Source: Candidatus Iainarchaeum andersonii SCGC AAA011-E11 (GTDB lineage Archaea; Iainarchaeota; Iainarchaeia; Iainarchaeales; Iainarchaeaceae). Taken from it: a stretch of DNA of 51,997 nucleotides. The notes below the pieces were generated by a model that made no database searches, was not told the origin of the DNA, and worked only from the letters and a program-made list of their open reading frames with translations. The position numbers and the translations under genes were made by a program. The stretch covers positions 22,790 to 74,786 of the forward strand of contig AQRS01000042.1 of the NCBI GenBank assembly GCA_000402355.1. The letters run 5' to 3'. Below are positions 21,901 to 36,243 of this stretch, in pieces. How positions within the stretch are numbered: position 1 is the first letter of the stretch; each line of letters starts with the position of its first letter.

Positions 21901-24900
21901 CAACCACGTTATCGCGCAAATCCTTGATTGCCTGGCCGGCCTCTTTCGCAATGTCCTTCTGCAGCTGGTCGTCGCTTCCAATGCTTTCCTTGATGTAAGC
22001 GTTTATTGTAACTGGGTTCTCGGAAATAACCTTGTCCATTTCAACGCGGACAATATAGCCCTCTTCGTTCCCGAAATCAAGCTTCAAGGTGTTCGAGCCC
22101 GAAACGTTCTGCGTCGCCCTTTGGTCCGAACCGAACAATGTTTTTGCAACGTCCTTTGCGAGGCCGTCAAGCTTTTCATCGCGCGCCTGCACGACCCCGA
22201 GCCACGAGTTATATTTCTCCGATGTCGTGAGGCCCTCATCCCGCGGCAGGAAATTTGAGATGTTCTGTATGCGCGCGAGGCACTGCTCCGTTTCCTCGCG
22301 AACGCTTCCCCCGTCGCTTGAATCAGGCGTAATGTCAACGACCATGTTCATGAGCTCTGGCACGAGCCTCGCGCCCTGCACCGCAACAGAGCCATTGAGC
22401 GTTATCGTATATCTTCCGCATCCCCTGAAGTTGCTGTTCAGGAAAACCTGCCTGCTGTAGCCCCCGAGGTACTCGCCACCCGTGTCCCCGCTGATGAAAT
22501 CAGCCCTGAAGTCCCTGATTACGCCGGTTTTCTTGTCAATGGCTTTCTGCAAAAGCGCCGTGCTTAAATTGTCCTGGCCCATGTAAACGGAGAAAGTTTC
22601 CTTCCTCACGCCGAGGCCGTCGAAAGAGCAGTAGCCGCGCGCGAGCTCCTGCTGCGAACAATACGCATTCTGGATTTCGGAACTCTTGCTCTGAATCTGC
22701 TTCTGCGCGTCGGTAATTTTTGAATCAATCCTGTCCACCAAATAAGCCGCGAGTTGCTGCGCGTCGCAGTAACTCGAGTCGCAGAGCGGCGAGTTTCCTG
22801 CCGCGATTATCGGGAACCTGACATCCATTGTTCCGCCTCCACACACATTCAATGTGACGCGCTCCGTTGCCGCGGTCCCTTCCTTGACATATTTTCCGAG
22901 CTTCACATCCACAATGATTGGAGTGGATTCTATTGCGGTTCCGCTGTTCGGCAAAAACGCCTTTATGTAAACAGGGACAGCCGGCCCCTGGAAATCCTCC
23001 TTCTTCTCAAGTATGAGTTCGGCCTTTGCTTCCGCGCCCGGCGCAATTATCATGTCCGCGGGGCTTATCGAGAGCCTGTTGTTTCCCAATGGCGCCTGCG
23101 AGATTTCACGTACCCTTACAGGCTCCGCGCAGGTGTTGCGCAGGCTTATGCTTTGCGAGATCGCGCCTTCATCGCTCTTCGTGCTGATGTAACTCACGTT
23201 TCCCGGGACCGCGATGAGGCAGCCCTCCGCGGAAATGTGCGAAGTCACAATGATTGGCCCGAAGTTGAATGTCGTGCCATTGATTACTCCCGTAACGTCA
23301 AGCTCCTTCGTGTCCACAAGAGTGGTCTTCTCGTTGCGCAGGGCCTGTGCAATAATTGTTTTTGGCGGGAGAATCGCCTGCCCTTTTTTCAGGAACTGTA
23401 TCGCGAACGGCGGGTCAATCCTTATGTCCACGTTTCCGCGGGAGGTCGCGCTCGAAACCTTTATGTCGACATTTTCTATGTCCGCTTCCCCGACGTTCCT
23501 TATGAAGAGGGGCACCTGCGCCGCGTATTGCCCGCGGTCGTTCGGGCCCAAAAACAATTCGATATTGTTTGTCATCTGGAGCGCGTAGCGCGGGTTCCAG
23601 ATGTAAACATCCAAAGAAACGGTCTTTTCGAAATCGCTTCCCTTGTAAACGAGGTCAAAGCTGAACTTCTGCTTTCCGGGATAGTTCCTGAGGAGCTTGT
23701 TCGTAATGCTTATTGTAACCTCGTCGGTGTCGGTCCGGTTTCCCTGTGTTTCCGAGAGCTGCGGCGAGACCTTTATCTGCTCGGGGTCAACCTCAATGCC
23801 GTCGGTTTTCTGGCCGCGAGGAACAACCTGCGCCGTCAGCTCCAGATCAAGCTGGCACTCCGCCCTGTTCGCGAGCTTTGCAGTGAAAGTTTCTGTCGTT
23901 GATGCCGAGAAATTGTTGTACTTGTAGTAACTCGTCGGTTCGGTCGAATTAAGGGTTCCATACCTGTTGTCATAGTAGGGGCGGTCCTCGAAACCCGAGG
24001 CAACATAAACCGCGAGCTTGTCCTTGCTGAACTCAAGGCAGTCAGAACTTATCTTCGGGTTGTAATCAATTACCGCACGCGTTTCCGCGACAACACTGAA
24101 GCCGCTCTCTGTTTTTGCGCGCGCAATAATCCTTGCGGCTCCATGCGCGCTGTCATTTTCGCCCGTGTATTTTGCGCTTACCGAAATCCTCTGCGTCTGG
24201 CCCGCCTGCAAACCCGAAAGGGGCGAAATTTCAATTGCCAGTCCGTCAGGCAATGCGCCTATGGGTTCGGCCGTAAAAGTGATGCTGTTCAGGTTCTGCT
24301 TGGAGTTGTTCACGAGGTCAATGAACTTGTCAACATTCTTCTCGCCCTTCCTTATGATTAGGGACACCTGCGCATCCGCAAAGGAGAGCATTCCTGTTTT
24401 GGTTATGCTTATGGTTCCGTCGAGCGCCCTGAATTCCGGCGCGGTGATTTCGTATCTTATTGTGCCGGAACCGAATGTGTTCTTGATTGCGTACATTCCG
24501 TTCGCGCCTTTTCCGACGGCTCCGTTGCCGCCGATTGTTTCAAGGTCATCGCCCGCCTCGTTCTGAATCCTTATCTGCGCATTTTCCACGGGCAGTGAAT
24601 CATCGCCAGTGAGGCCTATTGAAAAGTCCTCGCCGAAAACAACGTTTTCAGGGGTTGTGCGGAGCACCATTGTGCGCTCCCTGAAAATCTCGAAGTAGAA
24701 CTGCTCGTTGATTATGGTTTCGCCTGAAATGAGCTGCAGGGTTATTCCGGAGTTCTCCTTTTCCTTGGTCTTGAAGTAGAGCCTCACGGATGTGGATTCT
24801 TTCGGCAAAACGGAAACGTGGTCAACCTGAATCGAGGTGTCGGAGCTGTTCGTGTCCGGGAAATCGGAGAAATTCTCTATGCCATAGCCCTGGAACGCGA

Positions 24901-27439
24901 TTTTCGGCTTTGTCTTCGAGGTGGATGCCTTCACCGTAATGTCGCGCGCGTCCGCCGGGCTCAAATTTATTTCGAGAGCGTAAATCTCGTTCAATGCCGC
25001 CTTGAAATTATCCGGCCTGAATTCCGAGCCGCCGCTCCTTATGAATTTGTAGCTCGCGCACAATTCGTTCGCGCATGAGGCGCTTGATTCAAGTATCCTG
25101 ATTTTCCCGGCGCTGGTTTGCGCGTACAGCGATGTCCTGTTCTGCGAGTAAACGCTTTTTCCGAGTTCAGAGTCCTCCGGGTTTCTGTAAACAGTGCTGC
25201 CTATTGCGCTCCACGCGCGGTAATGAACCTCGGTTTCAGAACTCGAGGAAGTTTCCTTTGCCTTCACGCGAACCTTGATTATTTTTTCTCCGCCGCTCTT
25301 GAAGTAAAGCTCGAGCCACTTGTTGTACGCGCCTTCGGAGCCCGAATTCGAGTAATCAAGGGCTTCAAATCCAGGGGATGGCTGCGGCGAGTAACTTCTC
25401 GCGTAAAAGCTGCTTGCTCCTGACGCCGAAAAACCGGTTATGCCCGCGTCCTGCGAGTCCGCGAAATTAACGCTGTCCTCGCCCATGCGGACATGGAAGC
25501 CGTTGTCCGTTGTCCCTTCCGCGAACACCGCCTTGAACTTCAGGAAATAATCAACGCCCTTGGAAATTCCCTGGGCCTGCGAACCATCAATGTTGAACAC
25601 GCCCTGGAACTCTACATCAGGGGCAGTAGTTTCGCCTGTTTTTCCGGCAGGAGAAACGCTGACCTCATCCTTGCCCTCGACATAAACTTCCTCGTCAAAA
25701 GTTTTTCCCTCAGCATCTTCATAAGTGACCGTGACATACTTGTTCTCCTTTGGGTTGAACACAATGCCGCCTGTAGTGTAACTGTCCTCGAAGAGCAGGT
25801 CCTTTCCGGCAACAACCGTCACTTTACCGCCGCTCACCTCTTTTCCCGCGGCATCAAGCACCTTGAGGTCGACCTGCGAGAAAGGCTTCCTCATTGTAAT
25901 GAATGCCTCGTTGTTGAACGTGTCCTGCACATTCACTGTTGCTTCGCCCTCCAGGCCGCTTTTCGTTGCCGTGACAAGAATGCTCTTGTTCAATGGAACT
26001 AGTATTGAAAGCTTCCCTGTCGCATCGCTTTTTTGCGTCGGGATTCCAAGCGGAATGACTCCGTTCTTGTCTGTCTGTTCCGAAAAGTTAATGGCAACGC
26101 CGTTCATTGCATTGTTCTTTTCATCAACAGTGTAAACCGTGAGCGAACCGGAGTTCTGCGCAGTCGCCCTTTCAAGCACGAGGTTGGTTCGGTTCTTCGC
26201 ATTCAGGTTGATTGTTTCAATTGCGGGAATGAACTTGTCCTGCCATGCGGTTGCATAATAAATGGTTTCCGTCGAGAGGCTCTCGAAAACGGCTTCGCCC
26301 GCGAGCCCGGTGTCCTGCGTTCCAATGAGTTCGCCGAGGCTGTTGTAGAGGTTCACGCTGATTGATGGCAGCGGCCTTCCCGTAACATCAATGACGCCGA
26401 CAGTAAGCGCGTTCTTGCCGGGCTTGAGGTAATAATCCTTTATGGTTTCGACATCCCTGAGGGTAATGTTTTCCTCAACCAACCCCGAATCGTAAGTCAG
26501 GTAATCGCTTCTCTGCACCACAATCCGCACAATGGCGCCCTTGGAAATTTTTTCCGCCTGCTCGCCGTCATTGTCGGTTTCGGTCGTTTCGGTTATGAGC
26601 TCGTTGTCCTTGGCATCGTAAACCTTGAGGGTGAAGTTCCCGAGGCGCTGCCTCGAATCAAAATCATAAACCCTGACAATGAGGTTCGATTTTCCCGAGG
26701 ATGCGCTTGCCTTCGCAACAAGCTCGACTTCATCCGGGGAATCACTGTGCATTGTTGTCGTGAAATTTTTCTGCTCAAAGTTCGCCTGTGTAATCTGCAG
26801 CGTTGTCTGGTCGCCCTCAATTACGCCCGGGCAGGTATAAAACCCGTTCTCGGTCGCGCTTTCAAAGCACTGTATGCTTCCTCCTGAAAAGCTTGCGACA
26901 ATTTTTGCGTCCGAAACAGGTGTTCCTGTAGCGGAATCCGCGAGGCGCAGCGAGCCCTCGATTATTTTCACCTGCTTCTTGAGTTCGAGCTCAACGGCCT
27001 GCTCCGCGCCGCTGAAATAAACTTCGCGCGTGAAAGAATCGTAGCCGTCCTTTGATGCCTGCACAGTGATTCTCGAGCCTACTCCGAGCTTCAAAGGAAT
27101 GCGCTGCCCATCGCGGAAAGTGGTTGAACCCAATTCAATAGCCTTGCCCTGGGAATCGATCGCGCTGAGCGAAACGCCCGTTAGGGTAGCGCCCCTGTCA
27201 TCCGTGATTGACAGCACAATCGTGGCCTGTTGCGAGGGCAGGAAGAAAAAGCCGTACAAAAGGAATGCGACTATTAGAAAGCCGGCTATTGCAAGCGGAA
27301 AAGTGGGAATCCCGCGGTTCTCCAAAGGATCAATGACGGCATAAACAGGCACTCCCTTGTCGCTCAGAAAATCCATTGCGGCGTAAAACTTCCCCTCAAT
27401 GCCCGCGTAAATGCCGCCAATAAACTCGGAAATCCCCAT
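18905..27439 (-). CDS. Giant surface protein 3 (2844 aa): paralog of giants 1 and 2 with the same head + TM + beta-sandwich repeats and a divergent long C-terminal half
   Basis: Uninterrupted 8.5-kb ORF with an ATG at 27439. Head is IYAGIEGKFYAAMDFLSDKGVPVYAVIDPLENRGIPTFP, followed by TM LAIAGFLIVAFLLYGFFF. Repeats include IVLSITDDRGATLTGVSLSAI, LIVRVYDFDSRQRLGNFTLKVY and LTVGVIDVTGRPLPSISVNLY. The core is colinear with giants 1 and 2 (GVDYFLKFKAVF..DNGFHVRMG...HYRAWSAIGS; SASCANELC). Confidence 0.85.
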   Translation of the reverse strand: MGISEFIGGIYAGIEGKFYAAMDFLSDKGVPVYAVIDPLENRGIPTFPLAIAGFLIVAFLLYGFFFLPSQQATIVLSITDDRGATLTGVSLSAIDSQGKAIELGSTTFRDGQRIPLKLGVGSRITVQASKDGYDSFTREVYFSGAEQAVELELKKQVKIIEGSLRLADSATGTPVSDAKIVASFSGGSIQCFESATENGFYTCPGVIEGDQTTLQITQANFEQKNFTTTMHSDSPDEVELVAKASASSGKSNLIVRVYDFDSRQRLGNFTLKVYDAKDNELITETTETDNDGEQAEKISKGAIVRIVVQRSDYLTYDSGLVEENITLRDVETIKDYYLKPGKNALTVGVIDVTGRPLPSISVNLYNSLGELIGTQDTGLAGEAVFESLSTETIYYATAWQDKFIPAIETINLNAKNRTNLVLERATAQNSGSLTVYTVDEKNNAMNGVAINFSEQTDKNGVIPLGIPTQKSDATGKLSILVPLNKSILVTATKSGLEGEATVNVQDTFNNEAFITMRKPFSQVDLKVLDAAGKEVSGGKVTVVAGKDLLFEDSYTTGGIVFNPKENKYVTVTYEDAEGKTFDEEVYVEGKDEVSVSPAGKTGETTAPDVEFQGVFNIDGSQAQGISKGVDYFLKFKAVFAEGTTDNGFHVRMGEDSVNFADSQDAGITGFSASGASSFYARSYSPQPSPGFEALDYSNSGSEGAYNKWLELYFKSGGEKIIKVRVKAKETSSSSETEVHYRAWSAIGSTVYRNPEDSELGKSVYSQNRTSLYAQTSAGKIRILESSASCANELCASYKFIRSGGSEFRPDNFKAALNEIYALEINLSPADARDITVKASTSKTKPKIAFQGYGIENFSDFPDTNSSDTSIQVDHVSVLPKESTSVRLYFKTKEKENSGITLQLISGETIINEQFYFEIFRERTMVLRTTPENVVFGEDFSIGLTGDDSLPVENAQIRIQNEAGDDLETIGGNGAVGKGANGMYAIKNTFGSGTIRYEITAPEFRALDGTISITKTGMLSFADAQVSLIIRKGEKNVDKFIDLVNNSKQNLNSITFTAEPIGALPDGLAIEISPLSGLQAGQTQRISVSAKYTGENDSAHGAARIIARAKTESGFSVVAETRAVIDYNPKISSDCLEFSKDKLAVYVASGFEDRPYYDNRYGTLNSTEPTSYYKYNNFSASTTETFTAKLANRAECQLDLELTAQVVPRGQKTDGIEVDPEQIKVSPQLSETQGNRTDTDEVTISITNKLLRNYPGKQKFSFDLVYKGSDFEKTVSLDVYIWNPRYALQMTNNIELFLGPNDRGQYAAQVPLFIRNVGEADIENVDIKVSSATSRGNVDIRIDPPFAIQFLKKGQAILPPKTIIAQALRNEKTTLVDTKELDVTGVINGTTFNFGPIIVTSHISAEGCLIAVPGNVSYISTKSDEGAISQSISLRNTCAEPVRVREISQAPLGNNRLSISPADMIIAPGAEAKAELILEKKEDFQGPAVPVYIKAFLPNSGTAIESTPIIVDVKLGKYVKEGTAATERVTLNVCGGGTMDVRFPIIAAGNSPLCDSSYCDAQQLAAYLVDRIDSKITDAQKQIQSKSSEIQNAYCSQQELARGYCSFDGLGVRKETFSVYMGQDNLSTALLQKAIDKKTGVIRDFRADFISGDTGGEYLGGYSRQVFLNSNFRGCGRYTITLNGSVAVQGARLVPELMNMVVDITPDSSDGGSVREETEQCLARIQNISNFLPRDEGLTTSEKYNSWLGVVQARDEKLDGLAKDVAKTLFGSDQRATQNVSGSNTLKLDFGNEEGYIVRVEMDKVISENPVTINAYIKESIGSDDQLQKDIAKEAGQAIKDLRDNVVEGCISQDESYLLLKSTSSFELPVLKVTGPLNVLFNVPQCVDVNVTSKFTDGVSLSARKFSQFDGISADSPYFAAAPVLGAAPNPGAKITQLQIDKQDKKTNSYTGGAMVCVTGNEQLQQAQGKKIVVTAQRTAGEGKKPIETEVELNVCGVHPLDLLEKIKGKPNGEYYATVVWKGNPDKILLSDLPKLARAEEVAKTSDSIIDGKQNVTQGDPPELVQKKRKASYAYLGACGVASIGTSLLRPTIGPAGALLNVLFDCGIPFTALMGETVPFMKDIFNFADGIFKKVNEFLDSTFAGRIISYPLRLMGIGNEKSIAEQLKGFDPKTDAVQSISAAFADPIRLKAVILGASRTFSSTAIGGPDIPWIGQIDIVSKNIADTIAEDITKNAFAGVTDKKMLDNIKAFQGVYDDAMYKEVRAELQSAAKSKTTISIKGAGRTTNITTDDITKAVEAAKLRVDKDETVWRQFYNVRNGVSVDSLKTAKLSEATAEKIVEDMKLQTRVTGSTTVILPTTRAGTFVDLDDVARNPATYPQFNTNVLGLENNLKNSIKTRIKNELGVAALPPNLEAKIDGLKLDWRSGTTAEYFEDVAAPPGARQAVQVKAPLETKIKIGNDQVKEMVQQAESIFKEDVLERIRSPLATTYDTALQNKFASTGVKSLTVNAAQAVEDARPKFWSWKGGLAFAKNALKEGALGAVANSIGLIAYNSVFNKEDSTGINAVKTISREDELKKAQVGLFGQEIETTGNAAKEIVRYNTYLVSLKTRADGVQSLMFSQAANGIPQGTKPDTVLNDCKNSGIDKELGEVLPGLIPEVEDSQKFPEPFKASKELQTQHVKIAKNYLAEQSNGERYGAIIAQAVKDQKGQPASLDSSSNKKTRFAALTNNLNLEALTVSIGIVKSELGTYTGTATAPDAKGSAIFMFGCSLHSDKTAGDVYPNALCASDKLYSYAGECNGDVPCYLAEYNADKDNQEANAINVTGTQFEQIYSAWNSYAWKAS

Positions 27440-27512: not shown

Positions 27513-27572
27513 AAACCTTTTTCTTTCCTTTAACAAGGAAAGAAAAAGCTTTACCAAAAAGAAAGGTGTAAT
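27513..27572 (-). promoter_or_regulatory. Conserved upstream module of giant gene 3: perfect 14-bp stem / 4-nt loop (27517-27548) plus one GCTTTACCAAAAAGAAAGGTGTA box
   Basis: Arms are CTTTTTCTTTCCTT (27517-27530) and AAGGAAAGAAAAAG (27535-27548), with loop TAAC. The module lies between the archaeosortase stop (27582) and a TATA-like ATTAATATAT (about 27496-27506 on the minus strand). It is homologous to 16412-16503. Confidence 0.45.
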
Positions 27573-27581: not shown

Positions 27582-28145
27582 TCAGTGTGCTTTTTTTGTT
27601 GCCCAGCCGAACCACACGTAATAAAACCCGGCAATCACCACGAACAGGAAAACCCTGAACAAAATGTCATGCGAGAAATTGCCCGCGTCAAGCCCGAGCC
27701 ACGCGATTATCAAAATGCTTGAGATTATGCGCGCAAAATTGAAAGCAACCAATACAATGGCCGCCGCGGCAACCCCGATGAGCCTTTTCCTCAAATCAAT
27801 TCCGAAGCTGGCGAGCACCGCGCTCCAGACGATGGTTAATTCGAGAATGCCGGTGCACAAATAACTGAAACCGAGGGGCGCGGCAAAAGAATCAAGGTAA
27901 ACGAGCACAGGCTCCCCCGCAACAACAACGCCTTTGAAGCCCAGCAATTTCAGGAACCAGAGAGTCGCGGAAGCAAAGAACCCCTCGAACCATTCCAATG
28001 GAAAAAGCGAGAACACGAACCCGAAAAAAAGGAAAAGCACGACAATCGCGGCGATGAATTTTCCCGCCTGCAGAGCGTCCTTCCGCGAAAACATTTCCGT
28101 GCCATTTGCTTTTTTCATGGTTGCGTCCCCTGATGTGCGGCTCAT
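27582..28145 (-). CDS. Archaeosortase/exosortase-family protein (small form, about 187 aa)
   Basis: Polytopic membrane protein carrying the family's three signature positions in order: LGFSYLCTGILEL (Cys), VAFNFARIISS (Arg) and NFSHDILFRV (His). Preferred start is ATG 28145 (MSRTSGDATMKKANG...), which forms an ATGA overlap with the stop of the upstream gene. ATG 28118 is an alternative. The 112-aa extension of the track ORF (to 28481) lies inside the upstream CDS. Confidence 0.65.
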   Translation of the reverse strand: MSRTSGDATMKKANGTEMFSRKDALQAGKFIAAIVVLFLFFGFVFSLFPLEWFEGFFASATLWFLKLLGFKGVVVAGEPVLVYLDSFAAPLGFSYLCTGILELTIVWSAVLASFGIDLRKRLIGVAAAAIVLVAFNFARIISSILIIAWLGLDAGNFSHDILFRVFLFVVIAGFYYVWFGWATKKAH

Positions 28146-29008
28146 TTCAGTTCCTTGTGAATAAGCACCGCGAGATAATTGTTCGCAACCCCATACATCG
28201 CGCCCATAAAAACGTTCACCAGAGTAGGCAGTATCACCGCGAGTGCAATGAATCCCGTGTAAATTCCCGCGAGTTTTCCGAGCTCGGAAAAAGCGTAAAC
28301 AAGCGTGACGTTCGCGACCGCAAAAATAGCGAAAAGCCCCGCAGCCGGAACAATGACCCGCATTGCCTTTCCACTTGTTTCCTCCCAGCTCGCGGAAAGC
28401 GATTCGAGCACGTTCTTTTCCTCGGTGAAAAATATCGGGAAAGCCATGAGCAGGCGCGCAAAATTCCTTATGGTTACGCAAACATAAGCAAGCAGCAGCG
28501 TGAGTATGGCAAGGCTCACGAAATTCGCGAGCGCTTCGGAAAACTGCTGTGCTGTGCCCTGCAGAAAAGAAAGCGCAGCCGCCGCCAATGGGAGCAGCAA
28601 AAATTTTTTGTCGTAAAGCGAAAAGGCGCCCGCAAGGGTAGAGGCAATTATGAGCACGTAAGAGTGCAGCTTTTTCCTGGAATCAAATTTTCCCGTTTTG
28701 AACCCGAACTGCCGCAGCGCCGCCCTGATTATCAGCAGGTAAATGTAAACTGCCGCAATGCTTGCCGCTGCCGCAAGCGGAAAAAGCATGAGGTTAACCC
28801 CAGCATACTTATCCTGCAGCTGCTGCGCGGGCGCATCTTCAATGTACGGGATGCTGAAAAAATCCTGCCCCAAAAAATAAGAGTACGCCATTATTGAAAC
28901 CGCTGAAACGAGGAGCTGAAGGGAAAGCAGGATGGCAAAATATTTCATTGCCGCCTTATTTGGGCGCCACGCATTGAAAGAATTTGAAATCAGCTCGACA
29001 GAATCCAT
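28142..29008 (-). CDS. Polytopic membrane protein (288 aa, ~6 TM), unknown function, translationally coupled to the archaeosortase-family gene
   Basis: ATG at 29008 (MDSVELISNSFNAWRPNKAAMKYFAILLSLQLLVSAVSIMAY...). Repeated hydrophobic helices. Its stop overlaps the next start (ATGA at 28142-28145). Confidence 0.6.
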   Translation of the reverse strand: MDSVELISNSFNAWRPNKAAMKYFAILLSLQLLVSAVSIMAYSYFLGQDFFSIPYIEDAPAQQLQDKYAGVNLMLFPLAAAASIAAVYIYLLIIRAALRQFGFKTGKFDSRKKLHSYVLIIASTLAGAFSLYDKKFLLLPLAAAALSFLQGTAQQFSEALANFVSLAILTLLLAYVCVTIRNFARLLMAFPIFFTEEKNVLESLSASWEETSGKAMRVIVPAAGLFAIFAVANVTLVYAFSELGKLAGIYTGFIALAVILPTLVNVFMGAMYGVANNYLAVLIHKELK

Positions 29009-29215
29009 GCAACCGGCCTTTTACGCTAATAAGTATCATGTTCACGAATAAAAAATAGCCGTTTCCGAAAAAACGCAAAGCCCAATTTTTCCAGGCCGTG
29101 CGCGCTAATATAAAAGTATAATAATAAGAATCCCCATCTATTTCTCAAACAACCCAACCCCCTACGAGGGTTCCGTTGACGGTGTCGTTGAACCAGGCTA
29201 TTGGTGATTTGCGCA

Positions 29216-31492
29216 ATGAAGATAGGAGGTTTCGAAGTAGGCCCTTATGTCGTGAAGGACGAGGGCGGCAAGAGAATGCTCATTATTGACGCGCGCGACG
29301 CCTTCTATACTCCTTCAATTGCCGATGACAGGAACGCGCGCTACCACGTCCTGAAGGTCCTTTCCGAAGTCGAGGCGGACATCGTTGTCCTTGCCGAAGT
29401 TTACGAGCGCGTTTACGATGAGAAGCAGACGCAGATGCTCTCGGAAATCGCCTCCATGTACCAGAAGTTTGAGGTGGAAAACATCTGGAGCTACGCTCAT
29501 TTGGGAGATCCGAAAAAGGAATCCGAAAAGGATTTTGGGGAACGCCACAACATCATTGTGCGCATAACGCATGACGAGCTTTTGTTCGACCCGATTCTCT
29601 CGTACATCCGGCTGCTTCAGCAGATAAGCAATGAAAGGCAGAGGCTTGACTCGGTTCCCGCGGAGCAGCGCACCCAGCTTTTCCTCGGCACACTGATGCA
29701 TGTGAAGGAGAAGTTCGAGTCAACAGAGCTCATAAAAAAATCGAAAGTGATACTTTCAAAGCTCGAGAAAGTTCCGGACACGAACGAATTGTACAGGAGC
29801 TTCTTCGAGGCGCAGGTGAAGCCGAGCTTCATTGGTTCAAGATTGGTTTTCGGCGAGGAGGAGCAGCTCGAGCTTCTTGACGAGTACTCGGTCAAGGACG
29901 CAACCGTGCAGATATTCAAGCACCCGAACAAGGTTGAAAAGCTCTACTTCGTCAACCTGCCCGAATACTCTTTGTTCCCGGAAAAATATTTTTTGCTCAG
30001 CAAAACAAAGGAAACAGTCGCAACCTACAAGCCCGGCCGCGCGTCACTTTCAGAGGTCGCGAAAAGCAGGCGCTATTTCGAAAGGATTTACCAGTCAACA
30101 ATAAGGGACATTGCGAAGCACGAAAACATTTCAATAACCAACGACGAAATAATTGATTTGAGCCAGATTGTCGCGCGCTACACAGTCGGTTATGGGGTCC
30201 TGGAAATCCTTCTCTCTGACAGGAGGATTACGGACATTTACATCGACTCGCCGATCGGGGACAAAAGGATTTATTTGGTGCATTCGGAGTTCGGGCAGTG
30301 CCAGACCAACATAATTTACACGCAGGAAGAGGCGGATTCGTTTTCCTCAAAACTCAGGGCAATGTCCGGAAGGCCTTTTGATGAGGCCCATCCGGTGCTT
30401 GACTTTGATTTGCCCGACCTTGAAACAAGGGTTGCGGCAATAGGCCCTCCCCTTGCGCCCGACGGAACCGCGTTTGCGTTCAGGCTGCACAAGACAACGC
30501 CATGGACGCTCGCACAGTTCGTGGACGTCAAATATTTGCCCCCGCTTGCAGCCGGCCTGCTTTCCTTCTTCGTTGACCAGCAGGCAACAATGCTCGTTAC
30601 CGGTTCAAGGGGTTCCGGAAAAACTTCGCTGATGAGCAGCCTAATGCTTGAGATTTCACAGAACTCCCGCATAATAGTCCAGGAGGACACGCTTGAGCTG
30701 CCGGGAAACTACCTGAAGAGCATCGGCTTCAACATCCAGAGGCTCAAGACAAGGTCTCCCATCGGGGCGCGCGAAAACGACAGTGAAATCGCACCTGAAG
30801 AAGCGCTCCGAACCGCTTTGAGGCTCGGCGATTCCGCCCTCATTGTCGGCGAGGTAAGGAGCAAGGAAGCAAAAGTTTTGTACGAGGCGATGCGTGTCGG
30901 CGCCGCGGGAAACATTGTAATGGGCACAATTCATGGTGATAGTGCCTACAGCGTGTGGGACCGCGTTGTGAATGATTTGGAGGTCCCCAATACTTCGTTC
31001 AAGGCAACCGATATCGTTGTTGTTGCGCGCCCCATAAGGTTCAAGGGAAGCCTCGAGAGGCACCGCCGCATTGTCCAAGTAACGGAAGTGAAGAAGCACT
31101 GGATAACAGACCCCGAACGCGAGGGCGGCCTTCTTGACCTGATGACTTATGACGCGAAAAAGGACAATCTCGAGCTGCTTGAGGACAACCTCAAGGAAAG
31201 CAACATTTTCTCGAAAATCAGCGGCATGTCCGGCCTTACAATAGACCAGATATGGAAAAGCATACGCATGAACGGCGAATCAAAAGGGTATCTGGTAGAG
31301 CTCAAGAACCAGCTTAAGCTGCCGGAGCTGCTTGAAGCCGAAAACACCGTTGCCGCGAACAACAAGCTCATGCTTTTGAAGGAAGACCAATTGGAGGAAT
31401 ACGGTTCCGTTGACTACAACGACGTTTTGGGCGAGTGGAAAAACTGGGTAAAAAATTACCTTGTGAAGCGCATAAAGAGGAGGCACACATAA
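29216..31492 (+). CDS. Type II/IV secretion-family ATPase (FlaI/PilB/GspE-like), long form (758 aa), type-IV-filament locus A
   Basis: Walker A is VTGSRGSGKTSLMSSL. Asp box is IIVQEDTLEL. Walker B is ALIVGEVRSKEA. His box is GNIVMGTIHGDS. ATG at 29216; the track start at 29201 is TTG. A ~400-aa N-terminal region precedes the ATPase core. Confidence 0.9.
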   Translation: MKIGGFEVGPYVVKDEGGKRMLIIDARDAFYTPSIADDRNARYHVLKVLSEVEADIVVLAEVYERVYDEKQTQMLSEIASMYQKFEVENIWSYAHLGDPKKESEKDFGERHNIIVRITHDELLFDPILSYIRLLQQISNERQRLDSVPAEQRTQLFLGTLMHVKEKFESTELIKKSKVILSKLEKVPDTNELYRSFFEAQVKPSFIGSRLVFGEEEQLELLDEYSVKDATVQIFKHPNKVEKLYFVNLPEYSLFPEKYFLLSKTKETVATYKPGRASLSEVAKSRRYFERIYQSTIRDIAKHENISITNDEIIDLSQIVARYTVGYGVLEILLSDRRITDIYIDSPIGDKRIYLVHSEFGQCQTNIIYTQEEADSFSSKLRAMSGRPFDEAHPVLDFDLPDLETRVAAIGPPLAPDGTAFAFRLHKTTPWTLAQFVDVKYLPPLAAGLLSFFVDQQATMLVTGSRGSGKTSLMSSLMLEISQNSRIIVQEDTLELPGNYLKSIGFNIQRLKTRSPIGARENDSEIAPEEALRTALRLGDSALIVGEVRSKEAKVLYEAMRVGAAGNIVMGTIHGDSAYSVWDRVVNDLEVPNTSFKATDIVVVARPIRFKGSLERHRRIVQVTEVKKHWITDPEREGGLLDLMTYDAKKDNLELLEDNLKESNIFSKISGMSGLTIDQIWKSIRMNGESKGYLVELKNQLKLPELLEAENTVAANNKLMLLKEDQLEEYGSVDYNDVLGEWKNWVKNYLVKRIKRRHT

Positions 31493-33855
31493 TGCCTTCA
31501 GGGCGCGAGTTTTCAGGGGAAGAGAGGCAGACCGCGAGCATCGGCGAGCTCTACGAAAAAATAACTGTTTCTTCAAAGGACTTCGAGGAAGGCGAGAGGA
31601 AGCTCGAAAAAAAAATCGAGCACCCGTTTGTGAGGCTGTGCAGGCGCCTCCACGCGTACTCCCCTTCATTCGGGAACGGCGGCATTTTAACCGCCGAGAA
31701 CAAATCCGCAATGGATTTTTTGGGCTGGAAACTTACGGCTGAGGAATACACCGCGGCCGCAAAAATCGTGCTGGTTGTTTCGCTCGGATTGGCGTTTCTT
31801 GCCGGCATGGTTGTGCTCTTCACTCCATTGATTGACGTGGTTGCGCTGCTCACGGGCGGCGGGGTAACAGCGCTCATTTTTTCCTTCATGCCTTTTCTTC
31901 TCGTTGCTTCCGCAGTGATTTATTATTTCCAGATGTACCCGCAGATTGAGGCGAAGCGCGAACAGACAAAAGCGCTCACTTATGTTCCCGAAATGATGGG
32001 CTACATGATTATGTCCATAAAGCTCGTGCCGAACCTCGAGAAGGCGATCGAGTTTGCCGCGGAGCACGGCAGGGGAAAAATCGCGGACGACTTCAAGAAC
32101 CTGATTTGGGAGGTCCAGATTGGCGTCCACAATTCTATTTCGGAAGGCCTTGACGCCTTGGCTTACCGCTGGGGAAAGCACAGCGAGGAATTCAAGCGCG
32201 CGCTCATGAGGATACGCGCATCAGTAATCGAAAACACGGAAGCGAAAAGATACGCGCTGCTTGACCAGACAATGACGGAAATGCTTGAGAGCATCCGCTC
32301 CAAAATGGAGCAGTACGCCCGCAACCTCTCACAGCCGAGCACGCTGCTCTTCTACATCGGGATTCTCCTGCCTTTGCTCCTCATAATAATTCTTCCCGTC
32401 GGCAGCTCGTTTTCCGGCGCGCCGCTCGCAAACCCCCTCGTGCTTTTCCTGATTTACAACATCATAATTCCATTGGTGACGATTGCGTTTGCCTACAGCC
32501 TGATCCAGAACAAGCCGCCGACTTATGAGGCTCCCGTGATTCCGGACAATTACCCCGGGCTTCCCCCAAAGTGGAAGGCAAGAATCGGGGGCACATTTGT
32601 GGACATCAGGTTCATTGCAGCGGCAATAGCCGTGCTCGGCTTGGTTTCGTGTTTCGTTGTCTCTACACAAGGGATTCCGCCCAAAAGCCTTTATGGCGCG
32701 CTTGGCCTGGATGAACAAAAGTACAAGCCTCTTGTGGCGCCTGACAAGTCAAAGGAGCAGGTTCTTGTTGCGGCGGGAAGAAACCCGAGTTACTTCGCAT
32801 TGGATGAAACCGGCTTGAGGTACGGGCAACTGCTGGGCCAGCGCCTTCCGGGCGCTGAAACCGATGAGGACAGGCAGAAAATAATCGAGACCGTTAAAAA
32901 GGATGTTCTTGCGGAGGAGCAGATATTCTTTTCGCAGAGCCGGAACGACGTCGCGCCTTACAAGCTCGTTTTTGGCCTGCTCATAACCTTTTCCCTGGTG
33001 CTTTACGTGCTTCTTTTCTACTCCAGCATCTACAAGAAAAAGGCGCAGGAAGATGTCCAGGAAATGGAGTCCGAATTCAAGGACTCGCTTTACGTGCTTG
33101 CCTCGAGGATGGGCGAGAACAAGCCCGTCGAGGTTGCATTGAAGCATGTGCAGGAATTCCTGCCTGATGCAAAGGTCTCGAAAACAATTTTCGCGAGAAC
33201 CCTTGACAACATAAACCTCCTAGGCATGCCGCTCGAGTCCGCGGTCTTTGACAAGGATTATGGCTCGGTTTCAAAAATCCCCTCAAACATAATCCGCGGC
33301 TCAATGAAGATGCTGATTGACTCGGTCCAGCTCGGGGTCAATGTTGCCGCCAGAACAATGATTTCGCTTTCAATCCAATTGCGCAACTCCGAGAAAGTCA
33401 ACGAAACACTGAAAATCCTTGTTTCTGATATAACAGGCACGATGAAGACAATGACGATTTTCATTGCGCCCATAGTCCTTGGAATAACCACGAGCCTCCA
33501 GAGAATAGTGATTGTCACCATTTCATCCATTGCGTCTCAAGGAGCGTCTTCGGCCGCCTCAAGCAGCGCGCTCGCTGCTTCTGGAAGCTCGTTTTCCGGG
33601 CTGAGCGTTTCGGGCCTGGTTTCCTCCGAGGCAATAGCCGGAATCGCCTCGCCAACGCAGTTCATAATCATTGTAGCGCTGTACATAGTCGAGCTAGTCT
33701 TCATTCTGGGTTACTTCACCACAAAAATAGAGGAAGACAATGATTTGCTCGTGAAAATCAACATCGCGAAGTTCATGCCCATTGCAATCACAATATTTGT
33801 TTTGAGCATGCTGATATCCAACCTCCTGCTTGCCACGGGAGGCACGGGCGCATGA
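31492..33855 (+). CDS. FlaJ/TadC/PilC-like polytopic platform protein (787 aa, two T2SS-F-type cytoplasmic domains), locus A
   Basis: ATG 31492 overlaps the ATPase stop (TAATG). There are two helical T2SSF-like modules, each followed by TM bundles: YVPEMMGYMIMSIKLVPNLEKAIEFAAEHGRGKIADDFKNLIWEVQIGV... and FKDSLYVLASRMGENKPVEVALKHVQEFLP...LLGMPLESAV. The gene sits next to the ATPase. Confidence 0.85.
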   Translation: MPSGREFSGEERQTASIGELYEKITVSSKDFEEGERKLEKKIEHPFVRLCRRLHAYSPSFGNGGILTAENKSAMDFLGWKLTAEEYTAAAKIVLVVSLGLAFLAGMVVLFTPLIDVVALLTGGGVTALIFSFMPFLLVASAVIYYFQMYPQIEAKREQTKALTYVPEMMGYMIMSIKLVPNLEKAIEFAAEHGRGKIADDFKNLIWEVQIGVHNSISEGLDALAYRWGKHSEEFKRALMRIRASVIENTEAKRYALLDQTMTEMLESIRSKMEQYARNLSQPSTLLFYIGILLPLLLIIILPVGSSFSGAPLANPLVLFLIYNIIIPLVTIAFAYSLIQNKPPTYEAPVIPDNYPGLPPKWKARIGGTFVDIRFIAAAIAVLGLVSCFVVSTQGIPPKSLYGALGLDEQKYKPLVAPDKSKEQVLVAAGRNPSYFALDETGLRYGQLLGQRLPGAETDEDRQKIIETVKKDVLAEEQIFFSQSRNDVAPYKLVFGLLITFSLVLYVLLFYSSIYKKKAQEDVQEMESEFKDSLYVLASRMGENKPVEVALKHVQEFLPDAKVSKTIFARTLDNINLLGMPLESAVFDKDYGSVSKIPSNIIRGSMKMLIDSVQLGVNVAARTMISLSIQLRNSEKVNETLKILVSDITGTMKTMTIFIAPIVLGITTSLQRIVIVTISSIASQGASSAASSSALAASGSSFSGLSVSGLVSSEAIAGIASPTQFIIIVALYIVELVFILGYFTTKIEEDNDLLVKINIAKFMPIAITIFVLSMLISNLLLATGGTGA

Positions 33856-34307
33856 ATTCCAATGCGCAGGCCTTCGAGGTCTACAGGCTCCTCATAGGCG
33901 CGATAATAGCGCTCCTCATTCTCGTGATAATCGTTGGCGCAATAAATTATTTCGACAACCTGACAATTGACGTGAGCAGGCAGAGGTTTTTCAGCGGGCT
34001 CTCGAATGCGGTTGACCAGCCGAACGGCGAATCACTCATGATTGAGGGCGTGGTTTTCCGGCGCGGCGAAGCCTTCACTTCGCGCGCACTCGCTCTGCAG
34101 ATGGGCATCGGCGAGGACTGCGTTGAATTTGCGGGCAATGATTCCTCGGGAATTTCCCTGGGAGACGGCATAGTCACTGTAAAGGAAAAGCTGAAGACCG
34201 ACGTTTTCGTGAAGTGCGAAACAAACAGCCAGGAAAGCCCCGCAATCGCGGTTCCAAGCGGCTGCGAAATTGCCTGCGAAATAGGCTTCGGCGAACCGAT
34301 AGGCTGA
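33852..34307 (+). CDS. Pilin-like protein with class III signal (MNSNA|QAFEVYRLLIGAIIALLILVIIVGA)
   Basis: ATGA overlap with the platform gene. A short leader, Q at +1 and a ~22-aa hydrophobic helix are followed by a small soluble domain. Confidence 0.65.
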   Translation: MNSNAQAFEVYRLLIGAIIALLILVIIVGAINYFDNLTIDVSRQRFFSGLSNAVDQPNGESLMIEGVVFRRGEAFTSRALALQMGIGEDCVEFAGNDSSGISLGDGIVTVKEKLKTDVFVKCETNSQESPAIAVPSGCEIACEIGFGEPIG

Positions 34308-34367
34308 GGCAAAAAAACAAGACAGTGGAATTGCCTCACGCAGTGTTTGAGGCAGGAAAGACAATAG

Positions 34368-34652
34368 AATTGCACGCTGCAGCTCCTGCAACTCTTTCAA
34401 TGACATCCTTGGTCCTAAGTCGCCGGCATTCAATTCAAACAATTGCCAGCAGTTTTCCTTTGCAGTGATTTCAGCCAACAGGGTTTTTCCCAAGCCAGTG
34501 TTTCCAAAAAACAACAATGGCTTTTGCTTTACTCCATTCTTCCAGCCATCACTCCACTTTTTTACGGCAGCAACTGCTGAAGGATTTCCCACAATCTCGG
34601 AAAATTTTTGCGGAGCAAACTTTTCAGTCCAAAGCATTGCTTTTTCAGGCAT
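34368..34652 (-). pseudogene. N-terminal fragment (~95 aa) of a replication factor C large-subunit-like AAA+ protein
   Basis: MPEKAMLWTEKFAPQKFSEIVGNPSAVAAVKKWSDGWKNGVKQKPLLFFGNTGLGKTLLAEITAKENCWQLFELNAGD matches the RFC-L N-terminus pattern (LW.EKY.P....E.VG... W...W...... LLL.GPPG.GKT.LA......G.....ELNASD). The Walker A is degraded (GNTGLGKT). Similarity stops after about 95 aa. The remaining ORF (to 34032) is low-quality and overlaps the pilin CDS. Confidence 0.45.
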
Positions 34653-34697
34653 ATTGAGTATTCCTATTAAAAAATTTTAATAACCAAAATTGTTCTA

Positions 34698-35240: not shown

Positions 35241-35393
35241 ATCAATATTCCAGCAGATTTTGATTTTAATGCTTGAGCAGGCAGGCATTGCATAGACTGT
35301 TTGCTTCACGCGTTTTAAACTCACAACACCCAACTTTTTCAACTGGCTAAAATCCCTGCTGATTGCTTCCTGAGGCCTGTTCAATTGTTCCAC
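35178..35393 (-). CDS. Possible small winged-helix (ArsR/TrmB-like) DNA-binding protein or remnant (71 aa)
   Basis: RPQEAISRDFSQLKKLGVVSLKRVKQTVYA resembles a recognition helix plus wing of wHTH regulators. N-terminal helices are missing, and the 3' end overlaps the nucleotidyltransferase gene by 63 nt. This is a weak call. Confidence 0.3.
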   Translation of the reverse strand: MEQLNRPQEAISRDFSQLKKLGVVSLKRVKQTVYAMPACSSIKIKICWNIDSARRKTLQSFLRTLELYPVV

Positions 35394-35406
35394 AACTGCT
35401 GAAACA

Positions 35407-35414
35407 TTTATATA
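35407..35414 (+). promoter_or_regulatory. TATA box (TTTATATA) for the pilin gene at 35445
   Basis: Perfect archaeal TATA consensus 30 nt upstream of the ATG, which implies a very short leader or none. Confidence 0.45.
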
Positions 35415-36221: not shown

Positions 36222-36243
36222 CTACTTTTTCCTACTTTGATTC

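What the first reader, a model, noticed from the sequence alone, without database searches (positions are those of the whole stretch)
27582..29008. Archaeosortase-family gene, ATGA-coupled to an unknown 6-TM protein, placed immediately upstream of the largest giant, which lacks any C-terminal sorting signal
The 187-aa protein has the ordered Cys (LCTG), Arg (NFAR) and His (SHD) positions that define exosortase/archaeosortase transpeptidases. That triad is known from ArtA of Haloferax. Yet none of the three adjacent giants ends in a motif-TM-basic tail; they are N-terminally anchored. Either the enzyme acts on the distant 1524-aa protein at 41371-45945, or it has a non-canonical role with the giants, such as processing at internal hydrophobic segments. 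Its obligate-looking partnership with the 288-aa membrane protein is also unexplained.
Basis: partly seen in the sequence, partly recalled or inferred. Interest (0 to 1): 0.65.

Follow-up and report, generated by a model that had tools for sequence, protein, structure and literature searches.

The report
Pilus-cluster archaeosortase with candidate sorting signal
The 187-aa gene is a real archaeosortase-type membrane enzyme of an unnamed subfamily, built into a type-IV-pilus-like surface gene cluster of tiny DPANN archaea; its likeliest target is the distant 1,529-aa protein, which carries a previously undescribed, strongly conserved C-terminal sorting signal.

Summary
ORFs 27582-28145(-) (187 aa) and 28142-29008(-) (288 aa) overlap by ATGA. 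The 187-aa protein passes the NCBIfam exosortase/archaeosortase signature (39.4 bits, cut-off 23) but no named subfamily. Its Cys97-x-Gly, Asn136-x-x-Arg139 and His159 are invariant in relatives down to 19% identity.

It belongs to a short (~160-220 aa) family found mainly in Iainarchaeota (DPANN). In 32 of 35 loci it sits beside a type-IV-pilus-like ATPase/platform/pilin cluster. In 35 of 44 loci an N-anchored giant follows it on the same strand.

The 288-aa partner is not obligate: it appears in only 8 of 53 loci.

The 1,529-aa protein (41356-45945) ends in F-N-[LI]-P-[SL]-x-P-E, then a TM helix, then a K/R tail. This is conserved in 77 distinct tails and matches no known CTERM model. The protein always lies at the far end of the same pilin cluster, and four genomes show it 8-18 kb from the sortase.

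Best reading (about 0.5): a canonical, outward-facing archaeosortase that processes this protein. A non-canonical action on the giants remains a live rival, because they carry G-I-P-x-F-P directly before their N-terminal TM helix.

The parts
27582..28145 (-). 187-aa short archaeosortase-family protein. Catalytic-type residues: C97 (27855-27857), N136/R139 (27729-27740), H159 (27669-27671), R164 (27654-27656).
   Evidence: TIGR04178 scores 39.4 bits against a cut-off of 23. These residues are invariant in A1 and A2. The AF2 model has pLDDT 89.6 with five helices and a small beta-sheet.
28142..29008 (-). 288-aa multi-TM partner, ATGA-coupled to the sortase. It is a lineage-restricted accessory protein.
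   Evidence: ATGA overlap. There is no family hit above cut-off. Homologs occur only in L001, L003, L004, L014, L015, L019, L023 and L029, always directly upstream of the sortase. Only 2 hits turn up in the 5.8-billion-protein search.
27517..27548 (-). Perfect 14-bp hairpin (CTTTTTCTTTCCTT-GTTA-AAGGAAAGAAAAAG) in the 142-nt spacer between the sortase stop and the giant start. It may be a terminator or regulatory element.
   Evidence: RNA fold of 27440-27590(-): -37.5 kcal/mol, z = -3.3 against shuffles.
18905..27439 (-). 2,844-aa giant: a 44-aa acidic head, then G-I-P-T-F-P (IPTFP = 27296-27310), then one TM helix (27227-27295). About 2,000 aa of Ig-like/CarboxypepD_reg repeats follow, then a conserved hydrophobic pair at about residues 2068-2117 (21089-21238), then a ~700-aa C-terminal region.
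   Evidence: A head-bearing ortholog lies downstream of the sortase in 35 of 44 loci and in distant lineages.
8864..16345 (-). 2,493-aa paralogous giant with the same N-terminal head (…RNIPSFP, then the TM helix).
861..8291 (-). 2,476-aa paralogous giant with a degenerate head (…KVFPSF, then the TM helix).
17768..18874 (-). 368-aa pilin-like protein (MLMEKG|FTLFTALVAFIL…), conserved directly downstream of the giant.
29201..31492 (+). 763-aa T2SSE-type secretion/pilus ATPase, transcribed divergently from the partner-sortase pair.
   Evidence: PF00437 at 66 bits. It is adjacent to the sortase in 32 of 35 loci with at least 4 kb upstream and in distant lineages.
31435..33855 (+). 806-aa polytopic platform protein, T2SSF-like.
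   Evidence: PF00482 is weak at 21.4 bits. Synteny.
33852..38863 (+). Pilin-like cluster: p151 33852-34307, p179 35445-35984, p205 36244-36861, p219 36865-37524, p215 37518-38054 (MLAKGFIGPIGDDLPSLIP, then the TM helix) and p270 38051-38863. A nucleotidyltransferase gene is inserted at 34698-35240.
   Evidence: Class-III-like N-termini. Conserved order.
41356..45945 (+). 1,529-aa secreted protein, the candidate cognate substrate. It has a signal peptide (MRQVYSIFIVYLMLFPVLADA|TQ).
   Evidence: It is syntenic with the pilin cluster in every locus with enough flank.
45850..45945 (+). C-terminal tripartite signal NLPSLPEDKV / LLLLFIALIVMSFVYV / QRRKK, plus the stop codon.
   Evidence: Motif logo over 77 unique tails: N 65/77, [LI] 74/77, P 76/77, [SL] 75/77, P 77/77, E 65/77, then about 20 hydrophobic residues and a K/R tail. 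No NCBIfam CTERM model hits it.
40557..41099 (+). 180-aa 4-TM protein, conserved directly upstream of the 1,529-aa gene.
   Evidence: Present in 24 loci. It has no conserved Cys/His/Asp/Glu, so it is not an obvious protease.

Best explanation
The 187-aa protein is a functional, minimal (five-helix) member of the exosortase/archaeosortase superfamily. It belongs to an unnamed subfamily centred on Iainarchaeota (DPANN).

Shown:
- It carries the family's Cys-x-Gly, Asn-x-x-Arg and His signature.
- It is a fixed gene of a conserved cell-surface supercluster. The order is giant(s) <- sortase | 763-aa pilus ATPase -> 806-aa platform -> six pilin-like genes -> small membrane genes -> a 1,500-aa secreted protein.

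Inferred:
- Both termini and the DLRKR loop are K/R-rich, so both ends are cytoplasmic. Cys97, Arg139 and His159 then sit at the outer membrane face, as reported for Haloferax ArtA.
- Its most likely substrate is the 1,529-aa protein at 41356-45945. After Sec export this protein is held by its C-terminal TM helix. The enzyme would recognise F-N-[LI]-P-[SL]-x-P-E at the outer face, cleave there through a Cys97 acyl-enzyme, discard the TM-plus-basic tail, and pass the new C-terminus to a surface acceptor. By analogy with ArtA that acceptor would be a membrane lipid.
- This would make it a dedicated, one-target sortase system encoded inside a pilus/adhesin island.
- The 288-aa ATGA-coupled protein is an optional, fast-evolving membrane accessory, not part of the core mechanism.
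For: - Family membership: TIGR04178 scores above its cut-off, and all 35 sampled relatives hit it.
- C97, E102, N136, R139, H159 and F163 are invariant down to 19% identity.
- The AF2 model is confident, pLDDT 89.6.
- The N- and C-terminal extensions of homologs are K/R-rich and the K120/R121 loop is conserved. This supports an outward-facing active site.
- p1529 signal: the motif is conserved in 77 unique tails. It lies between a variable Gly/Ser linker and a variable TM helix plus K/R tail, which is the hallmark of a sorting signal.
- p1529 is the only such protein in the window.
- p1529 lies downstream of the same pilin cluster in all loci with enough flank; 37 of them show p270.
- The sortase flanks that cluster in 32 of 35 loci.
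- Sortase and p1529 are seen directly in one genome in four cases: the window (13 kb), AR10 (about 17 kb; L019 + L069), L010 + L065 (about 14 kb; stitched by a 100% identical 3.2-kb overlap) and L049 (8 kb).
- AR10 and L010 keep sortase plus p1529 although no head-bearing giant follows the sortase.
- ArtA precedent for Cys/Arg catalysis, an extracellular active site and motif-TM-basic signals: PMC9263693 and PMC6098224.
Against: - The gene next to the sortase is almost always the giant, not p1529.
- In distant lineages the sortase-giant pair persists while p1529 is not at the syntenic place (L056).
- Other C-terminally anchored proteins near relatives of the sortase (L010, L028, L044/L049, L052, L060, L061) carry different motifs. 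No single C-terminal motif therefore tracks the whole family.
- Genome-wide co-occurrence could not be computed.
- The topology was inferred from charges, not from coordinates.
- No biochemical data exist for this subfamily.
Confidence: 0.5

Rival explanations
1. The sortase works on the adjacent giant(s) through a non-canonical signal. One candidate is the conserved N-terminal '[KR]-G-I-P-x-F-P + TM' element, which resembles the Pro-x-Phe motifs of PGF/PEF-CTERM signals but sits at the wrong end of the protein. The other is the conserved hydrophobic pair near residue 2,070-2,115. The enzyme would release, trim or re-anchor a giant pilus-associated adhesin.
For: - A head-bearing giant lies downstream on the same strand in 35 of 44 loci, 30 of them within 1.1 kb.
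- The pair persists at sortase E-values of 1e-16 to 1e-24 (P0126, P0186, P0199), and the head HMM still hits two of those three giants; the third (L060) shows only a shortened head by eye.
- The head motif is the most conserved part of the giants.
- The pattern [ILVF]P[SAT][FLI][ILV]?P occurs only 5 times in 16,305 aa of window ORFs, each time just before a hydrophobic segment. It includes two giants, p215 and p1529.
- ArtA can process an internal signal (PMC6098224).
- The hydrophobic pair is conserved in sortase-adjacent giants only.
Against: - With an exported Ig-repeat body, which in relatives ends in SLT or glucosaminidase domains, the N-terminal TM helix must be N-in. That places G-I-P-x-F-P at the cytoplasmic face, opposite the inferred active site.
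- Sortase chemistry retains the N-terminal fragment, which here is only the 70-aa anchor.
- The [KR]-G just before the hydrophobic stretch also fits an ordinary, if long, class-III (prepilin-type) leader.
- AR10 and L010 have the sortase but no such giant nearby.
- A strong hairpin separates the two genes in the window.
Confidence: 0.27
2. The protein is an assembly or maturation factor of the type-IV-pilus-like machine itself. It might act on pilin-like proteins such as p215 or on pilus anchoring. This would compare with the uncharacterised ArtE of Methanococcus maripaludis, which is needed for pilus-dependent natural transformation. It would have no large secreted substrate.
For: - The gene is embedded in the pilus cluster. 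In L041, L045 and L056 the order is ATPase -> platform -> p151(-> p179) -> sortase -> giant on one strand.
- P0146 is a natural fusion of the sortase to a pilin-like 900-aa protein next to a 783-aa T2SSE ATPase.
- The ArtE deletion abolishes transformation (PMC10133366).
- 13 of 35 broader-family members hit the ArtE model weakly.
- p215 carries KGF[IL]GPIGDD[LI]PSLIP directly before its TM helix, conserved even in L056.
Against: - Pilin-like proteins here have no C-terminal TM helix, and their motifs lie on the N-terminal (cytoplasmic) side.
- The window protein does not hit the ArtE model at E<=1.
- No mechanism is known for ArtE.
Confidence: 0.13
3. It is a general-purpose archaeosortase whose substrates are scattered in the genome. 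Its position in the surface island would be incidental, and p1529's tail would be a plain membrane anchor.
For: - ArtA-type enzymes serve up to dozens of dispersed substrates (PMC6098224).
- C-terminal anchors near relatives show no common motif.
- One family member (P0150) sits in an unrelated context of patatin, MJ0043_C and SecDF.
Against: - The gene order is conserved across 53 loci and in 4 of 5 sampled distant members.
- The p1529 motif is far more conserved than its linker, TM helix or tail, which a plain anchor would not need.
Confidence: 0.1

Closest known systems
Archaeosortase A (ArtA, HVO_0915) of Haloferax volcanii with PGF-CTERM substrates
   Same: Both are polytopic membrane Cys enzymes of the same superfamily. 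The Cys-to-Arg spacing is similar: 42 residues here against 41 in ArtA (C173, R214). A further conserved Arg lies in the next helix (R164 here, R253 in ArtA). The active site faces outward. The substrate logic is motif-TM-basic tail. ArtA data come from PMC9263693.
   Different: This protein has 187 aa and five helices, so it is much shorter. The ArtA model does not appear among hits at E<=1. There is no PGF-CTERM protein in the window; the candidate motif is F-N-[LI]-P-[SL]-x-P-E. It appears to have a single target and sits inside a pilus cluster. The lipid-transfer partners PssA and PssD were not seen nearby.
XrtG (TIGR03110), the short exosortase of Gram-positive bacteria
   Same: It is the best-scoring named subfamily. 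The match is end to end (residues 24-179 against profile 21-176 of 187), so length and architecture are alike.
   Different: The score is 29 bits against a cut-off of 102.75, so it is not a member. XrtG is bacterial and, from my own knowledge, is linked to glycosyltransferase genes rather than pili.
ArtE (TIGR04124), e.g. MMJJ_17200 of Methanococcus maripaludis
   Same: It is a small archaeosortase-family protein with no proven target. It is genetically required for a type-IV-pilus-dependent process (PMC10133366). Some broader-family members hit the model.
   Different: The window protein does not hit ArtE at E<=1. No giant or p1529 linkage is described for ArtE.
Pacearchaeosortase (NF033505), a DPANN-specific archaeosortase model
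   Same: It comes from the same superfamily and the same DPANN assemblage. 12 of 35 broader-family members hit it weakly.
   Different: The window protein has no hit at E<=1. It is a different phylum-level lineage.
Pilus-specific sortases of Gram-positive bacteria (analogy only)
   Same: Both are transpeptidase-type enzymes encoded inside a pilus/adhesin gene cluster.
   Different: The folds and pilus types are unrelated (sortase-polymerised pili against type-IV-like pili). There is no evidence here for pilin cross-linking.

Membership tests
Exosortase/archaeosortase superfamily (NCBIfam TIGR04178; Pfam PF09721) | Signature HMM score above the curated cut-off | tested here: met
   39.4 bits against 23, E=5.5e-10, residues 97-181. 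All 35 sampled relatives also hit it. PF09721 is precomputed on several homologs, although Pfam did not report it for the window protein itself.
Exosortase/archaeosortase superfamily | Conserved Cys-x-Gly, Asn-x-x-Arg and His on three successive membrane helices. The wording of the family description is from my own knowledge; the importance of Cys/Arg is reported for ArtA in PMC9263693. | tested here: met
   C97-T-G99, N136-F-A-R139 and H159 are present. C97, N136, R139 and H159 are invariant in 23 sequences (A1) and in 35 (A2), down to 19% identity; G99 is invariant in A1 and nearly invariant (>=90%) in A2. They lie on AF2 helices 100-111, 118-150 and 152-182.
Exosortase/archaeosortase superfamily | Polytopic membrane protein with the active site at the extracytoplasmic face | tested here: inconclusive
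   The AF2 model shows five helices. The outward-facing site is inferred from the K/R-rich termini and the DLRKR loop.
Exosortase/archaeosortase superfamily | A cognate protein in the same genome with a C-terminal signature motif, a TM helix and a basic tail | tested here: met
   The 1,529-aa protein ends in NLPSLPED, a TM helix and QRRKK. This is conserved in 77 unique tails and syntenic with the sortase. That it is the actual substrate is inferred, not shown.
Exosortase/archaeosortase superfamily | Demonstrated C-terminal cleavage or transfer activity | not testable with these tools
   This needs expression, mutagenesis and mass spectrometry.
Named subfamilies: ArtA, ArtB, ArtC, ArtD, ArtE, ArtF, XrtG, XrtH, XrtM, XrtP, XrtX, pacearchaeosortase | Subfamily HMM above its curated cut-off | tested here: not met
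   The best is XrtG at 29 bits against 102.75. Next come XrtP at 26.2 against 200, XrtH at 25.5 against 86 and ArtB at 20.7 against 150. ArtA, ArtC, ArtE and pacearchaeosortase are absent at E<=1.
Known CTERM sorting domains (PGF-, PEF-, PEP-, VPXXXP-CTERM and others in NCBIfam) | The C-terminal domain HMM hits the candidate substrate tail | tested here: not met
   No family hits the p1529 tail or two divergent tails, even at E<=10.
GPDPase_memb (PF10110) / DUF7544 (PF24400), for the 288-aa partner | HMM above the gathering score, or a significant profile-profile match | tested here: not met
   PF10110 scores 20.5 against 29.6. hhalign gives 0.6% probability against the DUF7544-type neighbours and 34% against the third neighbour family, over about 49 columns.

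The most novel reading that the evidence does not exclude
This short archaeosortase subfamily recognises a Pro-x-Phi-Pro element placed directly before a TM helix, wherever that element sits in the protein. That would include the N-terminal 'head-G-I-P-x-F-P-TM' of the giant pilus-associated proteins and the 'GDDLPSLIP-TM' of p215. An archaeosortase would then process N-terminally anchored, pilin-like giants as part of a type-IV-pilus-like host-contact apparatus in DPANN archaea. That would be an N-terminal sorting signal for a sortase-type enzyme, which has no precedent.
Probability: 0.15. Interest if true: 0.85.

Novelty: new variant of a known kind. Interest (0 to 1): 0.58.

Why it matters
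Archaeosortases are understood almost entirely from Haloferax ArtA. Nothing was found in the searched literature on their role in DPANN archaea.

This locus defines three things. First, an unnamed minimal subfamily: 764 cluster representatives at E<=1e-3. Second, a new and very well conserved candidate sorting signal, F-N-[LI]-P-[SL]-x-P-E-CTERM. Third, a fixed genetic link to a type-IV-pilus-like machine and to giant adhesin-like proteins, which in relatives end in peptidoglycan hydrolase domains.

This gives a concrete, testable enzyme-substrate pair. It also gives a handle on how ultra-small archaea build the surface apparatus they presumably use to contact other cells. If the giants prove to be substrates, that would extend sortase-type processing to N-terminal signals.

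Tried and rejected
- PDB sequence search with the family profile found 0 hits. Foldseek of the confident AF2 model found nothing at E<=0.001. No solved relative exists.
- AF2 of the natural sortase-pilin fusion P0146 was meant to show whether the pilin-like TM helix docks at the active site. Run without an alignment, it gave pLDDT 37.5 and is unusable.
- Partner homolog search in the 5.8-billion-protein set found only itself and one 89%-identical relative, so no structure job could be fed a useful alignment.
- I asked whether the three multi-TM families seen upstream of sortases are one superfamily. hhalign gives only local, weak matches (0.6%, 34% and 86% probability over about 50-80 columns). 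This is unproven.
- mem180, the conserved neighbour of p1529, was considered as an alternative protease. It has no conserved catalytic-type residues and was rejected.
- A common motif among other C-terminally anchored proteins near sortase relatives was looked for and not found.
- Extending the view beyond the window on its own contig failed: the proteins are not on record.
- The Haft 2012 paper (PMC3256604) is not held. The exact wording of the family signature therefore rests on my own knowledge.
- Prepilin peptidase: no Peptidase_A24 hit appeared among the window ORFs scanned. Its absence from the genome cannot be concluded.
Full report
**Observation**

ORF listing and the sequence confirm a 187-aa ORF at 27582-28145(-). 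Its ATG overlaps the TGA of a 288-aa ORF at 28142-29008(-), giving ATGA. A longer TTG-initiated reading (299 aa) exists but would overlap most of the partner. The 2,844-aa giant (18905-27439, -) starts 142 nt downstream on the same strand.

All three giants (2,844, 2,493 and 2,476 aa) have one N-terminal hydrophobic helix and no C-terminal one. The only window protein with a signal peptide plus a C-terminal TM helix and basic tail is the 1,529-aa ORF at 41356-45945. The motifs YLC97TG, FN136FAR139 and FSH159D are present.

**Family assignment**

The NCBIfam signature model TIGR04178 (exosortase/archaeosortase) hits residues 97-181 at 39.4 bits, against a cut-off of 23, with E=5.5e-10. No subfamily model comes near its cut-off. 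The best is XrtG at 29 against 102.75. ArtA, ArtC, ArtE and pacearchaeosortase are absent at E<=1. Pfam reports nothing significant for either protein; the partner scores only 20.5 bits on PF10110, below the 29.6 threshold.

A search of 5.8 billion proteins found 42 relatives. Where named, they are 'exosortase/archaeosortase family protein' from Candidatus Diapherotrites/Iainarchaeum MAGs. In an alignment of 23 of them, C97, T98, G99, E102, N136, R139 and H159 are invariant.

An exhaustive profile search of 1.84 billion cluster representatives found 764 proteins at E<=1e-3, 65 of them at E<=1e-30. Nearly all are 160-220 aa long. In 35 sampled members, down to 19% identity, C97, E102, N136, R139, H159 and F163 stay invariant. 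All 35 hit TIGR04178, and the other family hits are scattered across many subfamily models at weak E-values.

AlphaFold2 gives a confident model (pLDDT 89.6) with helices 21-46, 50-67, 100-111, 118-150 and 152-182 and a three-stranded sheet at 72-93. No solved structure resembles it by sequence or by fold.

Published mutagenesis of Haloferax ArtA names Cys173, Arg214 and Arg253 as critical and places the active site outside the cell (PMC9263693). Here the Cys-to-Arg distance is 42 residues, against 41 in ArtA, and a nearly invariant R164 follows H159.

**Topology (inference)**

N- and C-terminal extensions of homologs are rich in Lys/Arg, and the loop after the Cys helix (D-L-R-K-R) is conserved and basic. 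Both ends and that loop are therefore cytoplasmic. This puts Cys97 (start of its helix), Arg139 (outer part of the next helix) and His159 (start of the last helix) at the outer face. I could not inspect model coordinates, so this rests on charges only.

**Genomic context**

The window encodes a surface-structure island. Divergent from the partner-sortase pair lie a 763-aa T2SSE ATPase, an 806-aa T2SSF-like platform and six small proteins with class-III-like N-termini. Downstream of the sortase lie the giant, a pilin-like 368-aa protein, a GGDEF-domain gene and two more giants. Beyond the pilins lie a zinc-ribbon protein, two membrane proteins, the 1,529-aa protein, a PAC2 gene and a second Tad-like pilus set.

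I fetched 53 related loci from species-representative genomes, almost all Iainarchaeota, including the complete AR10 genome.

- The ATPase/platform cluster flanks the sortase in 32 of 35 loci with at least 4 kb upstream.
- A giant with the same N-terminal head lies downstream on the same strand in 35 of 44 loci with at least 1.5 kb downstream, and within 1.1 kb in 30 of them.
- In L041 and L045 the order ATPase-platform-p151-p179-sortase-giant-pilin368 is on one strand.

Five distant family members were sampled.
- P0126 and P0199 keep a 760-780-aa ATPase, a platform, the sortase and a giant.
- P0186 keeps the sortase and a giant, but no ATPase or platform was called in its locus.
- P0146 is a sortase fused to a pilin-like 900-aa protein beside a 783-aa ATPase.
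- P0150 has an unrelated context.

**The partner**

Iterated profile searches of all ORFs in the 53 loci find the 288-aa family in seven loci, plus the truncated L001. It always sits directly upstream of the sortase, with spacings from about -25 to +34 nt.

In L006, L007, L009, L024, L031 and L053 the ATPase start is under 170 nt from the sortase, so the partner gene is absent. Other loci carry other multi-TM genes there: a DUF7544 family (PF24400, 122.8 bits) and a third family, often on the opposite strand. Profile-profile comparison links the three only weakly. The big protein search found just one 89%-identical relative. The partnership is therefore real in this clade but optional.

**The giants**

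They consist of CarboxypepD_reg/Ig-like repeats. Their first 44 residues form a highly conserved acidic head, …IY..E.KFY…D.L..KGIPVY..IDPLE.[RK]-G-I-P-[AST]-F-P, followed at once by the single TM helix. The head HMM also hits the giants next to distant sortases.

Sortase-adjacent giants also share a moderately hydrophobic pair near residue 2,070-2,115 (K[KR].A..Y.G.C… and FDCGIP). This pair is absent from the two other window giants. A Gly-rich counterpart exists in the distant L061 giant. In L024 and L047 the orthologs end in SLT and glucosaminidase domains, so the body of the protein must be extracellular and the head cytoplasmic.

**The 1,529-aa protein**

Eight homologs from the protein search all end in [FL]-N-L-P-S-L-P-x, then a TM helix, then basic residues. 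A metagenome scan returned 80 loci at 30-72% identity.

Across the 77 distinct C-terminal tails the logo is: F/L 74, N 65, L/I 74, P 76, S/L 75, x, P 77, E 65. A variable Gly/Ser linker precedes it. About 20 hydrophobic residues follow, then a tail with a median of five K/R. No NCBIfam CTERM model matches it, even at E<=10.

The gene always lies after the pilin cluster (platform, p151, p179, p205, p219, p215, p270, then zn248/mem293/mem180) and before PAC2 and the second pilus set.

Two p1529 loci overlap sortase loci by 3.2 kb at 100% identity: L065 with L010, and L069 with L019 (AR10). Sortase and p1529 are thus 14-17 kb apart in those genomes, 13 kb apart in the window and 8 kb apart in L049. 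AR10 and L010 lack a head-bearing giant within 10 kb downstream of the sortase, yet keep p1529. The conserved gene just upstream, mem180, has no conserved catalytic-type residue.

**A shared motif**

The pattern [ILVF]P[SAT][FLI][ILV]?P occurs five times in 16,305 aa of window ORFs; I estimate about 0.4 by chance. Every occurrence is immediately before a hydrophobic segment: giants 2844 and 2493, p215 (KGFIGPIGDDLPSLIP), mem180 and p1529. In the 53 loci, 38 of 47 occurrences fall in giants, p215 homologs or the p1529 homolog. Only the p1529 copy lies on the outer face under the inferred topologies.

**Interpretation**

The enzyme is a genuine archaeosortase-family member of a new subfamily, and a dedicated part of this pilus/giant supercluster. 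The canonical reading fits all known requirements of the family: it cleaves the F-N-[LI]-P-[SL]-x-P-E tail of the 1,529-aa protein at the outer face and re-anchors or releases it. It also explains genomes that lack the adjacent giant. I put it at about 0.5.

The deeply conserved sortase-giant adjacency, and the similar proline motif before the giants' TM helix, keep a non-canonical action on the giants alive at about 0.27, despite the topological problem. A role in the pilus machine itself has circumstantial support from the need for ArtE in pilus-dependent transformation in Methanococcus (PMC10133366). I put that at about 0.13 and an unrelated general role at about 0.1.

A perfect 14-bp hairpin between the sortase and the giant (z = -3.3) suggests separate transcripts in this window.

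**Literature**

No paper in the held library links archaeosortases with Iainarchaeota or Diapherotrites, and the only DPANN co-mentions are incidental.

Noticed in passing
L024:17339-19441 and L047:16861-18960 (C-termini of giant orthologs); also the AR10 1,016-aa protein at L019:11874-14924: Orthologs of the sortase-adjacent giant end in peptidoglycan hydrolase domains: SLT at 42.6 bits and Glucosaminidase at 36.4 bits. AR10 has a 1,016-aa signal-peptide protein whose tail, by eye, resembles that of the glucosaminidase-bearing L047 giant (not scanned against Pfam). This hints that the apparatus attacks bacterial cell walls.
   Followed up: partly
window 21089-21238 (-), giant residues ~2068-2117: A conserved, moderately hydrophobic pair (KKRKASYAYLGACGVASIGTSLL RP… ALLNVLFDCGIPFTALMG) is present in all sortase-adjacent giants but not in the two paralogous giants. 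It could be a membrane hairpin or an insertion element.
   Followed up: partly
window 37518-38054 (+): The small cluster protein p215 starts MLAKGFIGPIGDDLPSLIP, then a TM helix. This N-terminal string is nearly invariant across Iainarchaeota and still recognisable in the distant L056. It matches no known family.
   Followed up: partly
window 27517-27548 (-): A perfect 14-bp hairpin flanked by T-rich runs lies between the sortase stop and the giant start.
   Followed up: partly
window 16650-17753 (+): A GGDEF (diguanylate cyclase) domain protein (36.5 bits) is encoded on the opposite strand between the pilin-like 368-aa gene and the second giant. This is unusual for an archaeon.
   Followed up: no
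window 34698-35240 (+): A nucleotidyltransferase-domain gene (PF01909) is inserted between the pilin-like genes p151 and p179. It is not part of the conserved cluster order in relatives.
   Followed up: no
window 29201-33855 (+): The pilus ATPase (763 aa) and platform (806 aa) are about 250 aa longer than the window's second, Tad-like set (a 493-aa ATPase and 271/297-aa T2SSF proteins at 48715-51855). The long forms co-occur with the sortase even in distant lineages.
   Followed up: partly
L055:7134-10442: P0146 is a single 1,102-aa ORF that fuses a sortase domain (13-185), a basic repeat linker and a pilin-like protein (…MNSKGFYAVTPFLGVIIIL…). It lies next to a 783-aa T2SSE ATPase and a UbiA prenyltransferase gene.
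   Followed up: partly
L021:7860-8954, L005, L017, L028; and L012, L026, L027, L036, L037, L046, L047, L051: Where the 288-aa partner is missing, other multi-TM genes often occupy the slot next to the sortase. They are a DUF7544 family (PF24400) and a third, unnamed family.
   Followed up: partly
L044:80-706, L049:9256-9873, L061:7554-7976, L060:1-5897, L010:10729-15771, L052:2408-5449: In several relatives, proteins near the sortase end in a C-terminal TM helix plus a basic tail, and most also show an N-terminal signal peptide. The motifs preceding the TM helix differ, for example NPSILP and GGFDATTV.
   Followed up: partly
window 40557-41099 (+): A 180-aa 4-TM protein is conserved directly upstream of the 1,529-aa gene in 24 loci. 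It has no conserved polar catalytic residues, and its function is unknown.
   Followed up: partly
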